A stretch of DNA of 64,000 nucleotides from assembly GCF_003991155.1 (NCBI RefSeq), contig NZ_CP031293.1. The stretch is one strand, 5' to 3'. The first letter of the stretch is position 1; each line of letters begins with the position of its first letter. Origin of the DNA: Escherichia coli (GTDB lineage Bacteria > Pseudomonadota > Gammaproteobacteria > Enterobacterales > Enterobacteriaceae). The position numbers were made by a program. Positions 1-3,000 of this stretch are shown here, piece by piece.

Positions 1-3000
1 TTGCATCAAGGGAGTGATTTACATCTAAAAATGAAGGTGAATTGAGATATGGTTCACTTTAGCTCACCTTACAGCTGAAATTTTGCCGCTATTTTTTTAC
101 ACTTAAGAGAAAAATGAGGTGATTATGGAACCCCTTCGTGAAATAAGAAATCGACTGCTTAACGGCTGGCAACTATCAAAACTGCATACTTTTGAAGTGG
201 CAGCCAGGCATCAGTCCTTCGCCCTTGCGGCAGAGGAATTGTCGCTGAGCCCCAGTGCGGTAAGTCACCGTATCAATCAGCTGGAAGAAGAATTAGGTAT
301 TCAGTTGTTTGTTCGTTCCCATCGCAAAGTGGAATTAACGCACGAGGGGAAACGCGTTTATTGGGCGCTAAAATCGTCGCTGGATACCCTGAACCAGGAA
401 ATTCTTGATATCAAAAATCAGGAATTATCGGGAACGTTAACGCTGTATTCCCGGCCCTCTATCGCCCAATGCTGGTTGGTGCCCGCATTAGGTGACTTTA
501 CACGCCGATATCCGTCTATTTCGCTCACCGTGCTCACTGGTAATGACAATGTCAATTTGCAACGTGCCGGAATCGATTTGGCGATCTACTTTGATGATGC
601 GCCGTCAGCGCAATTGGCTCATCACTTTCTGATGGATGAAGAAATCTTGCCTGTATGTAGCCCGGAATACGCTCAAAGACATGCTTTAACCAACCAGGTA
701 ATTAACCTGCGCCACTGTACGTTGCTCCATGACAGACAGGCATGGAGCAACGACTCCGGTACGGATGAATGGCATAGTTGGGCGCAACATTATGCGGTTA
801 ATTTGCCGACATCTTCTGGGATTGGCTTTGATCGTTCTGATTTAGCTGTTATCGCTGCGATGAATCATATTGGGGTAGCGATGGGAAGAAAACGCCTGGT
901 ACAAAAAAGGCTTGCCAGTGGTGAGCTCGTCGCGCCGTTTGGCGATATGACGGTGAAATGCCATCAGCATTATTACATCACCACATTACCAGGCAGGCAG
1001 TGGCCAAAAATTGAGGCATTTATTACTTGGTTAAGAGAACAGGTAAGTCAATATGAATGTTATACCTTATAATACATTAAATCATCTGGTTCCTAAATAA
1101 CCTTATTATGCACTGTAAGTGTATGTTGGCTTTATAAATTGCAATTTTTATATGGGAATTGTTTTGTCAATAGTTACGAAAAGGATAAATAAAATAACCA
1201 CATCTTCTTGGCGTCGAATATTGGAGAGCGATAATTTATAGTAAACTAGATTACCAGAGAAAAGATAAGTGGCAATATATTTGCTGGTGGCATTTTTATT
1301 AAATATTATATGTGTTGGTTTGTGACTTTAAAAAAATTAATTTTTAATAAAAAGGTGATTTATTTCTCATTTTGATTAATATTGAGGATCCATTATGATT
1401 ATCAGTTGTATGTCATAAAAATGAGGGGCTAAAAGCCTCAATGAATTGAGGCCTTTAGAACAGGGGTTATATCTTCTTTATATCTAACACATCACTCTCC
1501 CATACTCGTTTAAATCTTGCTGCATTACTGGCTGTATATAATACCGTATGATGTATATTTCTGTGCCCTAAATAATCTTGTATTAGTCTGGTGTCTAACC
1601 CTTGATTAGCTAAAGCATACCCACAACCATGCCTAAGCATGTGAGGATGAATATTAATATTCATATTGTGACTATATTTCTTACACATCTTATACACATA
1701 TTGTCTCGAGATTTTATTTCCTTGACAAGAAAGAAATAAAGAGTCTTCAAAAGGTTTTTTTACTATGTTATCACGTAGTGCTAGCCATTTTTTTAATAAC
1801 AGAACAGTTTCTTTTTGCAGGGGATGTACTGTGGATAATCCATTTTTTAAACGCTTGATATATATTGCTGACTCTGAAAAGTCAATGTCGCTAATCTTTA
1901 GTGCAATAAGCTCGCTTACCCTAAGACCATGTACATATGCCATTTGTAACATGGCTTTATCTCTAATTTCATTTTTTGAACCGTTGATGGCTTCAAAAAA
2001 TAACAACCATTCACTATGAGTAATAAATTTGCGCATAATATTATCGGTTATACTAATTAAGTTAAAAAATAAACTATAAATACCAGAGCCTGGTATTATT
2101 GCTTGTTTTTTATAAGCAAATAATGAGCTGGGGTTTAAATTATGCCACTAAATGGATATTCATCAATACCCCGCCAGAGAGATAGTTGCCCAGCGGGCAT
2201 AGATCATTGTTAGTCAACCAATGAGCATAAATAAGCACAAGGAGGTGTGTATTGCGAATAGTAATTCAATGACATGCTGGTGGTTTTTTTGTGGTGAAAA
2301 TATTTGTACCTTTTTGTTTACGGATGAAAAATAAACAGTCATATTATTTTGGTCAATTGTTGTGTTAGTTTTAACACTCGGTGATGTTTTTTGTTATAGT
2401 GCATTAAATTTTAAATAAAAAAATTCATACATTCATGGATGTAATATATACAAGATACAATGTTAATTTTAGATAAAATATTAATTGCATTGGATACTTT
2501 TTAAATATGCCGATGTTGAGCTTAATTTTATGAGGGAATGCTATTTCGGGTTGTAGGACTTTTTTATAATCATCTTATAGGGCTCTTTATATTTACAGGA
2601 GGGTTTTGAACGATAGTTACATAACGAAGGTTGTTTATATGCGTTTACAAGCGATTAATTAGATTAGGTGAATTTTAATAAATTAATCTATAATCATACA
2701 GCAACTATATGAATTATATTATTGACTAAATGTAATTCTTTCATCATAGTTGACATGGTTATTTTATATAAATAGAGGTGATTTATGCAAAACAGAAAAT
2801 TTTTAACGCATCATGAAATTAATTTACTACTTCAATCTGTAAGACAAAAGAGTTGCTCTTCACGCGATGTTTGCATGATTTTATTGGCTTATTTTCATGG
2901 TCTGCGTGTTAGTGAGCTCTTATCTCTGCAGTTGTCAGATTTAGAACTAACTACAGAAAAAATATATATTCAACGGATAAAAAATGGATTCAGTACAGTC

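What the first reader, a model, noticed from the sequence alone, without database searches (positions are those of the whole stretch)
2037..2784. Long AT-rich spacer of about 750 bp between divergent recombinase genes
This spacer is unusually long and AT-rich for a bacterial intergenic region and contains no convincing ORF. It probably holds the divergent promoters of both recombinases and could be a nucleoid-protein (H-NS-type) silencing region or contain a second switch. The sequence alone does not say which.
Basis: inference. Interest (0 to 1): 0.35.

Follow-up and report, generated by a model that had tools for sequence, protein, structure and literature searches.

The report
Regulatory spacer between ipuB and ipuA
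This is the known, uncharacterised gap between the two IpuB/IpuA DNA-invertase genes of pathogenic E. coli: AT-rich foreign DNA at the centre of a published H-NS silencing-protein peak, with no hidden gene and no second switch, so it is ordinary.

Summary
Window 2037-2784 is a 748-bp start-to-start gap between ipuB (1467-2036, minus) and ipuA (2785-3414, plus). At 28.6% GC against 49.5% for the window, it is the longest intergenic interval here and its most AT-rich stretch.

The locus is the published ipuB-ipuA-ipuS-ipuR-upaE island beside dsdC, present in 236 of 5,426 complete E. coli genomes.

- **No gene:** no conserved ORF, no Pfam or Rfam hit, no pseudogene trace. The spacer varies at least as much as nearby synonymous sites.
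- **No second switch:** long-range inverted repeats are fewer than chance, and ipuS or fimS core sequences are absent. The spacer is collinear in all 236 genomes and in natural ipuS-ON contigs. A published genome-wide inversion screen found no new element.
- **H-NS:** published CFT073 ChIP-seq puts both flanking genes near the top of the H-NS/StpA occupancy scale (0.84-0.91). Both stay bound in a double hns stpA mutant.

Best reading: it is the shared promoter region of the two invertase genes and the centre of an H-NS-family filament.

One oddity remains unexplained. An 83-bp patch (2190-2272) next to a Chi site is about five times more variable than the rest of the spacer.

The parts
1467..2036 (-). 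ipuB, tyrosine-type DNA invertase (189 aa), transcribed leftward away from the spacer
   Evidence: ORF. RefSeq annotation in 100%- and 97%-identical genomes. H-NS occupancy 0.91 in CFT073.
2037..2784 (.). The 748-bp ipuB-ipuA intergenic spacer, 28.6% GC. It is the shared upstream region of both invertase genes and the inferred centre of the H-NS/StpA/Hfp-bound zone.
   Evidence: Present once per genome in 236 of 5,426 genomes with nothing annotated. ChIP values of the flanking genes.
2785..3414 (+). ipuA, tyrosine-type DNA invertase, full-length 209-aa form (ipuS in the OFF orientation)
   Evidence: The exact protein is seen on at least 1,000 public contigs.
2722..2750 (+). Promoter-like site TTGACT-17-CATAGT, which would start transcription about 28 nt upstream of the ipuA ATG. 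This is a candidate proximal ipuA promoter (consensus match only).
   Evidence: 9 of 12 consensus positions. Not above chance expectation.
2371..2400 (+). Best promoter-like site in the spacer, TTAACA-18-TATAGT with an extended TG. It overlaps a CRP-like half-palindrome at 2361-2376. It would give ipuA a leader of about 380 nt (consensus match only).
   Evidence: 10 of 12. CRP-like match with 2 mismatches, not above chance.
2139..2166 (-). Promoter-like site TTGATG-16-CATAAT with an extended TG, pointing toward ipuB. It would give a leader of about 95 nt containing the palindrome (consensus match only).
   Evidence: 9 of 12.
2065..2111 (.). Imperfect 22-nt-arm palindrome with a perfect core AATACCAG-AGC-CTGGTATT (2079-2097) and T-runs on both sides, 43-75 bp upstream of the ipuB ATG. 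It looks like a bidirectional terminator or an operator. Its function is unknown.
   Evidence: I17; flagged as terminator-like on both strands. Fold z = -3.85, with 0 of 200 shuffles as stable.
2190..2272 (.). Hypervariable, relatively GC-rich patch. 26 of 83 columns vary among 20 E. coli strains, and two sites carry 3-4 alleles.
   Evidence: Scan-permutation P <= 2e-4.
2276..2283 (+). Chi octamer GCTGGTGG, directly adjoining the hypervariable patch. A second copy at 1283-1290 lies on the other side of ipuB.
   Evidence: 14 Chi sites in the window, all on the + strand. Kept in 19 of 20 strains.
3369..3643 (.). ipuS, the known invertible promoter element, given as context. It has 7-bp inverted repeats TGACCCA and TGGGTCA around a 260-bp core. 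It is in the OFF orientation here.
   Evidence: Derived from the K-to-F change and 11-aa truncation described in PMC6083910. Confirmed by natural ON-state contigs that are inverted over exactly 3369-3643.
3732..4352 (+). ipuR, LuxR-type regulator and first gene of the ipuS-controlled operon (context)
   Evidence: PMC6083910.
4377..12296 (+). upaE, phase-variable autotransporter adhesin (context)

Best explanation
The interval is the intergenic region between the divergently transcribed invertase genes ipuB and ipuA. These lie in the horizontally acquired ipuB-ipuA-ipuS-ipuR-upaE island between argW and dsdC in extra-intestinal pathogenic E. coli.

**Shown:**
- It contains no protein or known RNA gene and no invertible element.
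- Its extreme AT-richness (28.6% GC, 12.7 TpA steps per 100 bp) sits at the centre of a roughly 2.5-3-kb zone. In strain CFT073 this zone is among the most heavily occupied by H-NS and StpA, and it stays occupied when both are deleted. The authors attribute that residual signal to the paralog Hfp.

**Inferred:**
- The spacer carries the promoters of both invertase genes.
- The H-NS-family filament that nucleates on it keeps both genes at low expression. This would keep inversion of ipuS (and fimS) rare and make it responsive to whatever relieves H-NS silencing.
- Most of the 748 bp acts through bulk composition rather than specific sequence, because it varies at least as much as synonymous sites.
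For: **Identity.** The spacer is 100% identical to E. coli 2016C-3878 and 97.3% identical to CFT073. RefSeq names the flanks ipuB and ipuA, followed by a helix-turn-helix regulator and 'phase-variable autotransporter adhesin UpaE'. This matches PMC6083910.

**Lineage-specific.** It occurs in 236 of 5,426 genomes, one copy each, with no paralog found by sensitive blastn. It is part of PAI-CFT073-argW.

**Composition.**

**H-NS.** Wild-type H-NS occupancy in CFT073 runs upaE 0.12, ipuR 0.54, ipuA 0.84, ipuB 0.91, dsdC 0.13. StpA values are 0.83 and 0.93 for ipuA and ipuB. Both are flagged as bound in the double hns stpA mutant, where the paper says only 12% of bound genes keep signal. The paralogous recombinase genes are also bound but more weakly: fimB 0.45, fimE 0.21, and ipbA at IP/Input 15.9, which I convert to about 0.19.

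**Family habit.** Across 97 FimB-family recombinase genes in 80 loci, the median ORF-free upstream gap is 472 bp and 25% reach 748 bp or more. Those gaps average 11 GC points below their locus. H-NS repression of fimB and fimE is established (PMC8777976).

**A promoter is present.** ipuA is functional when expressed from its native promoter.

**No gene.**

**No switch.**

**Little sequence constraint.** Outside the variable patch, 0.054 sites per site vary, against 0.027 at synonymous sites of ipuB, ipuA and ipuR. The longest invariant run (72 bp) is within chance.
Against: - The ChIP table gives values per gene, not for the intergenic DNA, and it comes from CFT073 rather than this strain.
- No experiment seen here shows that ipuA or ipuB is de-repressed without H-NS.
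- No transcription start site is mapped. Promoter-like hexamers are not enriched over shuffles (14 found against 19.9 expected over 1000-4400).
- H-NS high-affinity motif matches are explained by base composition alone (4 against 2.5 in shuffles).
- The closest relative of the island, in Escherichia whittamii, has only about 129 bp upstream of its ipuA-like gene. A long spacer is therefore not required for function.
Confidence: 0.8

Rival explanations
1. The spacer holds a second invertible switch, acted on by IpuA, IpuB or the Fim recombinases, that flips a promoter for one of the invertase genes.
For: Invertible elements sit next to every other FimB-family recombinase gene in CFT073, and the spacer is large enough to hold one. 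A 29-nt stretch at 2126-2154 is 72% complementary to the left ipuS half-site region at 3364-3392 (I5).
Against: - In that 29-nt match, only 3 of 7 positions of the recombination core are kept (my reading).
- Inverted-repeat pairs 100-700 bp apart are fewer than in shuffles: 36 against 45 for 7-mers, and none of 9 bp or more against 4.1 expected.
- There is no exact or one-mismatch fimS core, no exact ipuS core, and only a single one-mismatch ipuS core.
- The spacer is one collinear piece in all 236 genomes and in five public contigs carrying the natural ipuS-ON form.
- Sequencing of CFT073 over-expressing each of the five recombinases found no new invertible element (PMC6458436).
- Caveat: ipuS itself is OFF in all 236 complete genomes, so the survey of complete genomes alone has little power. 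A weak signal about 600 bp from ipuS could also have been merged with the ipuS peak in the published screen.
Confidence: 0.03
2. The spacer hides an unannotated small protein, a type I toxin-antitoxin pair or a small regulatory RNA.
For: A GC-richer block at about 2130-2290 contains ORFs of 32-42 aa on both strands, and a strong Shine-Dalgarno-like AAGGAGGT lies at 2239-2246. The 42-aa ORF ends in a hydrophobic stretch. The palindrome at 2065-2111 folds better than every shuffle.
Against: - There is no Rfam match at E <= 1 and no Pfam match.
- The 42-aa ORF is found only as 6 rarely called E. coli hypothetical proteins of varying length, and nothing outside E. coli.
- The 37- and 42-aa ORFs show 9-10 different protein sequences among 12 strains and are broken in some.
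- The Shine-Dalgarno-like motif is mutated in one haplogroup.
- The block at 2160-2300 has no unusual RNA stability on either strand (z = -1.0 and -0.6).
Confidence: 0.06
3. Apart from two short core promoters, the 748 bp is functionless filler left by the rearrangement that put ipuB in the opposite orientation to ipuA. On this view H-NS binding is an incidental result of AT-richness and has no regulatory consequence.
For: - The spacer varies at least as much as synonymous sites and has no invariant block longer than chance allows.
- It has no homolog outside E. coli.
- All 12 recombinase pairs found in 80 related loci are tandem, and the closest relative (E. whittamii) has an AraC-like gene between tandem recombinase genes. 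The divergent E. coli layout is therefore derived.
- Regulator motif matches do not exceed chance.
Against: - blastx finds no trace of the AraC-like gene or any other neighbouring gene (best E = 2.5).
- H-NS occupancy here is near the top of the scale and about 2-4 times that of fimB and fimE, where H-NS repression is known to matter.
- Long AT-rich upstream regions recur across the recombinase family, which suggests they are maintained.
- ipuA over-expression is harmful (PMC6083910), so tight repression plausibly has value.
- This rival overlaps the best explanation rather than excluding it.
Confidence: 0.15

Closest known systems
ipuB-ipuA intergenic region of uropathogenic E. coli CFT073 (PAI-CFT073-argW; Bryan 2006, Battaglioli 2018)
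   Same: It is the same locus. The spacer is 97.3% identical, with the same flanking genes and order: dsdC, ipuB, spacer, ipuA, ipuS, ipuR, upaE.
   Different: Only allelic differences, concentrated in the patch at 2190-2272. The papers read here do not describe the spacer beyond calling it the source of the 'native ipuA promoter'.
Regulatory DNA of the fim recombinase genes (the long nanC-fimB region and the fimB-fimE spacer), repressed by H-NS
   Same: Both are long, AT-rich, H-NS-bound DNA upstream of FimB-family invertase genes. H-NS limits recombinase expression and hence switching (PMC8777976). fimB and fimE are H-NS-bound in CFT073. Long AT-rich upstream gaps are typical of the family.
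   Different: There is no sequence similarity. fimB and fimE are tandem rather than divergent. The fim region has defined NanR, NagC and IHF sites (from my own knowledge), whereas nothing comparable is detectable here. H-NS occupancy is 2-4 times higher at ipu and survives loss of both H-NS and StpA.
Invertible promoter elements ipuS, fimS and hyxS
   Same: They share the neighbourhood, the recombinase family and a size of a few hundred bp of AT-rich non-coding DNA.
   Different: The spacer has no flanking inverted repeats and no recombination core, and it is never found inverted. ipuS is found inverted at exactly 3369-3643 in natural assemblies.
Xenogeneic silencing of horizontally acquired AT-rich islands by H-NS/StpA filaments
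   Same: The DNA is lineage-specific and about 20 GC points below its surroundings, with very high H-NS and StpA occupancy.
   Different: Repression of these particular genes has not been shown. The silenced products are themselves switch enzymes, so any effect would show up as a change in phase-variation rate rather than in a structural product.

Membership tests
H-NS-silenced horizontally acquired regulatory region | Markedly more AT-rich than the host genome | tested here: met
   28.6% GC against 49.5% for the window. It is the most AT-rich 748 bp of the 64 kb, with 12.7 TpA steps per 100 bp against 5.1.
H-NS-silenced horizontally acquired regulatory region | Lineage-specific or horizontally acquired | tested here: met
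   Present in 236 of 5,426 complete E. coli genomes. The closest IpuA relative in another species is only 64% identical. Listed as part of PAI-CFT073-argW.
H-NS-silenced horizontally acquired regulatory region | Physical occupancy by H-NS or its paralogs | not testable with these tools
   Published CFT073 ChIP-seq gives ipuB 0.91 and ipuA 0.84 on the occupancy scale, and both remain bound in the double hns stpA mutant (PMC9765446 Data set S1E). Values are per gene and the spacer itself is not tabulated.
H-NS-silenced horizontally acquired regulatory region | De-repression of the adjacent genes when H-NS is removed | not tested
   No expression data for ipuA or ipuB in hns mutants were found.
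Invertible promoter switch (fimS / hyxS / ipuS type) | A pair of inverted repeats bounding a segment of roughly 200-400 bp, with recombinase half-sites | tested here: not met
   7-mer inverted pairs number 36 against 45.4 in shuffles, and there are none of 9 bp or more against 4.1 expected. There is no exact ipuS or fimS core.
Invertible promoter switch (fimS / hyxS / ipuS type) | Both orientations found in nature or in culture | tested here: not met
   The spacer is collinear in 236 complete genomes and in five public contigs encoding the ipuS-ON form of IpuA. In three of these the flipped ipuS (3369-3643) is fully covered, which serves as a positive control. The published genome-wide screen found no new element. 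Power is limited because the true switch is ON in only 7 contigs against at least 1,000 OFF.
Divergent promoter region | Two genes transcribed away from a shared upstream interval | tested here: met
   ipuB is on the minus strand ending at 2036 and ipuA on the plus strand from 2785.
Divergent promoter region | Functional promoters or mapped start sites in both directions | tested here: inconclusive
   Sigma-70-like sites occur on both strands, but not more often than in shuffles. ipuA works from its 'native promoter' on a plasmid. No start-site data were accessible, although dRNA-seq exists for Nissle 1917.
Protein-coding gene or known RNA family | A conserved ORF, or a match to a curated family | tested here: not met
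   No Rfam hit and no Pfam hit. ORFs are not conserved among strains. The 42-aa ORF appears only as sporadic E. coli hypothetical calls. blastx against neighbouring genes of 80 related loci gives no E-value below 2.5.

The most novel reading that the evidence does not exclude
The 83-bp patch at 2190-2272 lies just upstream of the candidate ipuB promoter and directly beside a Chi site. It may be a locally hypermutable or diversifying-selected element. On this reading, different E. coli lineages use it to retune expression of the invertases, and so the switching rates of ipuS and fimS. It would be a heritable 'rate dial' layered on top of phase variation. My evidence shows the excess variation, including sites with 3-4 alleles among closely related sequences. 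It does not show the cause or any effect on expression.
Probability: 0.1. Interest if true: 0.45.

Novelty: already known. Interest (0 to 1): 0.15.

Why it matters
IpuA and IpuB flip ipuS, which controls the UpaE adhesin, and IpuA at least also flips fimS (type 1 fimbriae); the two papers read here disagree on whether IpuB does. Whatever sets their expression therefore sets how often uropathogenic E. coli change surface state. Placing their shared upstream DNA among the strongest H-NS-family binding zones in CFT073 gives a concrete, testable link between nucleoid-protein silencing and phase-variation rates. This is a modest refinement of a known system, not a new kind of element. For the scan, the useful result is negative: this long AT-rich gap needs no new gene, RNA or switch to explain it.

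Tried and rejected
- **Rfam** at E <= 1 over 900-4500 found nothing.
- **Paralogs and mobile origin.** Sensitive blastn against all E. coli genomes found only the locus itself. In plasmids, only the recombinase coding parts match.
- **Phage hit.** The single hit, phage GER2, is host flank included in a prophage record. There ipuA is labelled 'integrasse' and UpaE 'long tail fiber', and the three 'attL' features are three unrelated 12-mers, so it is an annotation artefact.
- **Pseudogene remnant.** blastx of the spacer against all stop-to-stop segments of 80 related loci, including the E. whittamii AraC-like gene, gave a best E of 2.5.
- **Small ORFs.** No Pfam hits. A database search with the longest ORF (42 aa) returned only sporadic E. 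coli hypothetical calls.
- **Regulator consensus scans** (H-NS high-affinity motif, IHF, CRP, PhoB, Lrp) gave nothing beyond what composition predicts.
- **Sliding-window RNA folding** gave a few windows near z = -3. Only the 2065-2111 palindrome stands out.
- **Orientation survey across complete genomes.** As a control, the true switch ipuS is OFF in all 236 genomes, so this test alone is weak. I rescued it by finding natural ON-state contigs through the predicted 198-aa IpuA.
- **Phylogenetic footprinting beyond E. coli** is impossible, because the nearest IpuA relative is 64% identical and sits in a differently arranged locus.
- **Bryan et al. 2006** (PMC1360361) is not held.
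Full report
**What is at these coordinates**

The window opens with dsdC (119-1072, plus strand). It is followed by a 189-aa tyrosine recombinase gene on the minus strand (1467-2036) and the 748-bp gap (2037-2784). Next come a 209-aa tyrosine recombinase gene on the plus strand (2785-3414), a 317-bp gap, a LuxR-type regulator gene (3732-4352) and a 2,639-aa autotransporter gene (4377-12296).

The spacer is 100% identical to E. coli 2016C-3878 and 97.3% identical to CFT073. RefSeq names the flanking genes ipuB and ipuA ('tyrosine-type DNA invertase'). The downstream genes are a helix-turn-helix regulator and 'phase-variable autotransporter adhesin UpaE'. Nothing is annotated in the gap.

This is the published ipu locus. 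Battaglioli et al. 2018 (PMC6083910) described the invertible element ipuS between ipuA and ipuR.

**Checking the observation**

- The gap runs exactly from start codon to start codon.
- Its GC content is 28.6%, against 49.5% for the window.
- It is the longest stretch in the window free of ORFs of 90 aa or more, and effectively the most AT-rich 748 bp of the 64 kb.
- It is the longest annotated intergenic interval in the 50 kb examined; the next is 567 bp.

**Is there a gene?**

- Rfam finds nothing at E <= 1.
- Thirteen ORFs of 20-42 aa exist. Among 12 diverse strains, the ORFs in the GC-richer part show 9-10 different protein sequences, and several ORFs are broken in some strains.
- None hits Pfam.
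- The longest ORF (42 aa) is found only as six rarely called E. coli hypothetical proteins of varying length.
- blastx against every stop-to-stop segment of 80 related loci gives no E-value below 2.5, so no decayed gene is visible.
- The spacer has no paralog elsewhere in E. coli or on plasmids.
- The one phage hit is host flank included in a mis-annotated prophage record.

**Is there a second switch?**

I first located the real switch. The paper reports an 11-aa truncation of IpuA with a K-to-F change in the ON state. From this I derived the 7-bp repeats TGACCCA (3369-3375) and TGGGTCA (3636-3642) around a 260-bp core.

The predicted 198-aa ON-form protein exists exactly in public data, on 7 contigs. 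The 209-aa OFF form is on at least 1,000. Three of the ON contigs are inverted over exactly window 3369-3643, and a fourth ends inside the element. This confirms the boundaries.

Against that standard, the spacer fails on every count:
- Inverted-repeat pairs 100-700 bp apart are fewer than in dinucleotide shuffles: 36 against 45 for 7-mers, and none of 9 bp or more against 4.1 expected.
- It has no exact ipuS or fimS core.
- It is one collinear piece in all 236 complete genomes. All five public contigs carrying the ON form of IpuA align collinearly up to window 3375. Four of them contain the whole spacer; the fifth (L108) starts at window 2389.

The 236-genome survey alone is weak, because ipuS itself is OFF in all 236.

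Independent experimental evidence exists. Sequencing of CFT073 over-expressing each of the five recombinases recovered fimS, hyxS and ipuS but 'no new invertible switches' (PMC6458436). I could not establish the spatial resolution of that screen near ipuS.

**H-NS**

Hustmyer et al. 2022 (PMC9765446) mapped H-NS and StpA by ChIP-seq in CFT073. Their Data set S1E lists both flanking genes as H-NS-bound.

| Gene | Wild-type H-NS occupancy | StpA occupancy |
|---|---|---|
| upaE | 0.12 | |
| ipuR | 0.54 | |
| ipuA | 0.84 | 0.83 |
| ipuB | 0.91 | 0.93 |
| dsdC | 0.13 | |

The bound zone therefore peaks on the two genes that bracket the spacer.

By my calibration from rows present in both sheets (c0021: IP/Input 36.7, occupancy 0.437), the ipu values correspond to roughly 70-77-fold IP/Input.

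Both genes remain flagged as bound in the double hns stpA mutant. The paper says only 12% of bound genes keep signal there, attributes it to the paralog Hfp, and reads it as marking the highest-affinity sites. In the 83-row block I read, ipuB's residual signal (0.61) is second only to c2561 and equal to wzx.

The other FimB-family genes of CFT073 are bound more weakly: fimB 0.45, fimE 0.21, and ipbA at IP/Input 15.9.

The table has no intergenic values. Occupancy of the spacer itself is inferred from its position and from it being the most AT-rich part. Motif scans add nothing beyond composition.

**Promoters and other anatomy**

Sigma-70-like sites occur on both strands: plus strand at 2722-2750 and 2371-2400, minus strand at 2166-2139. 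Over 1000-4400 the count (14) is below the shuffle mean (19.9), so these are candidates only. That a working ipuA promoter lies upstream is shown by complementation from the 'native promoter'.

A palindrome at 2065-2111 has the core AATACCAG-AGC-CTGGTATT and T-runs on both sides. It sits 43-75 bp upstream of the ipuB start and folds better than all 200 shuffles (z = -3.85). It could be a weak bidirectional terminator or an operator. I cannot tell which.

**Evolution**

Among 12 diverse strains, the percentage of variable columns is:
- ipuB 1.2
- ipuA 0.95
- ipuR 2.1
- the two neighbouring intergenic regions 5.4-5.8
- the spacer 8.0

Per site, the spacer outside one patch varies at 0.054, against 0.027 at synonymous sites of ipuB, ipuA and ipuR. 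Its longest invariant run (72 bp) is within chance. At this shallow depth there is no sign of sequence-specific constraint.

Deeper comparison is not possible. The nearest IpuA relative (64% identity, Escherichia whittamii) sits in a differently built locus. There the order is an ipuB-like gene, an AraC-like gene on the other strand, then an ipuA-like gene with only about 129 bp upstream.

Across 80 related loci, FimB-family recombinase genes typically have long AT-rich upstream gaps. The median is 472 bp, a quarter reach 748 bp or more, and GC is 11 points below the locus. All 12 recombinase pairs are tandem. The length and composition here are therefore a family habit, and only the divergent layout is unusual.

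**An unexplained detail**

Variation is strongly clustered at 2190-2272, the GC-richest part of the spacer. There, 24 of 83 columns vary in 12 strains and 26 of 83 in 20 strains. The block 2185-2290 has 15 haplotypes among the 20 strains, and sites 2194 and 2272 carry 3-4 alleles. A permutation scan gives P <= 2e-4.

The patch ends 4 bp from a Chi octamer (2276-2283). A second Chi lies at 1283-1290 on the other side of ipuB. All 14 Chi sites in the window are on the plus strand, and none occurs between 2284 and 22086.

I can offer local hypermutation, diversifying selection on a regulatory site, or short imported tracts ending at Chi. I tested none of them.

**Verdict**

The finding is real but ordinary. 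It is the shared regulatory spacer of the known ipuB and ipuA genes, made of AT-rich foreign DNA at the centre of a very strong H-NS-family binding zone. It contains no gene and no second switch.

Noticed in passing
window 2190-2272: This is a hypervariable patch inside an otherwise slowly diverging island. 26 of 83 columns vary among 20 E. coli strains, against 0.059 per site in the rest of the spacer and about 0.013 in ipuA and ipuB. The block 2185-2290 has 15 haplotypes among 20 strains, and sites 2194 and 2272 carry 3-4 alleles. The cause is unknown.
   Followed up: partly
window 1283-1290 and 2276-2283: Two Chi octamers (GCTGGTGG) lie in the AT-rich non-coding DNA on either side of ipuB, and one directly adjoins the hypervariable patch. 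All 14 Chi sites in the window are on the + strand, and none occurs between 2284 and 22086.
   Followed up: partly
window 3369-3643: The known switch ipuS is in the OFF orientation here and in all 236 complete E. coli genomes that carry it. The ON form (198-aa IpuA ending QHFDPF) occurs on only 7 public contigs, against at least 1,000 for OFF. Those contigs are inverted over exactly 3369-3643.
   Followed up: yes
window 3576-3596: A GC-rich hairpin ACGCAGGT-TTTTT-ACCTGCGT with T/A runs on both sides lies inside the invertible ipuS element. It is flagged as terminator-like on both strands, so it could stop transcription in either switch orientation.
   Followed up: no
window 338-1072 (dsdC) versus 1467-4352: Synonymous diversity changes sharply at the island border. 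Among the same 12 strains it is 0.26 segregating sites per synonymous site in dsdC, against 0.027 in ipuB, ipuA and ipuR.
   Followed up: partly
window 3732-4352 (ipuR): Among 12 strains, ipuR has 11 amino-acid-changing segregating sites against 2 synonymous ones (0.023 against 0.015 per site), unlike ipuB (1 against 6). Selection on the regulator may be relaxed or diversifying. One genome annotates a shortened ipuR.
   Followed up: no
L003 (Escherichia whittamii) 721-5911: This is a related but rearranged island. It has an ipuB-like and an ipuA-like recombinase gene in tandem, with an AraC-family gene between them on the other strand. These are followed by a LuxR-type gene and a 406-aa ORF that I take from memory to resemble autotransporter heptosyltransferases (not tested). 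It may carry its own switch.
   Followed up: no
L109 (GenBank MG710528.1, phage GER2) 1944-12775: A deposited phage genome record includes this host island. It labels ipuA 'integrasse' and UpaE 'long tail fiber proximal subunit', and its three 'attL' features are unrelated 12-mers. This is an annotation artefact that could mislead similarity searches.
   Followed up: yes
window 23556-24122: This is the second-longest intergenic gap of the window, at 567 bp and 26% GC. It lies between sixA and a fimbrial-subunit gene at the head of a chaperone-usher fimbrial gene cluster, and is probably another H-NS-type regulatory region.
   Followed up: no
H91 (NZ_CP135712.1, strain TUM1586), region matching window 3200-3900: One genome has an IS200C-family insertion within the stretch matching window 3200-3900 (3' end of ipuA to 5' end of ipuR), which contains ipuS.
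   Followed up: no
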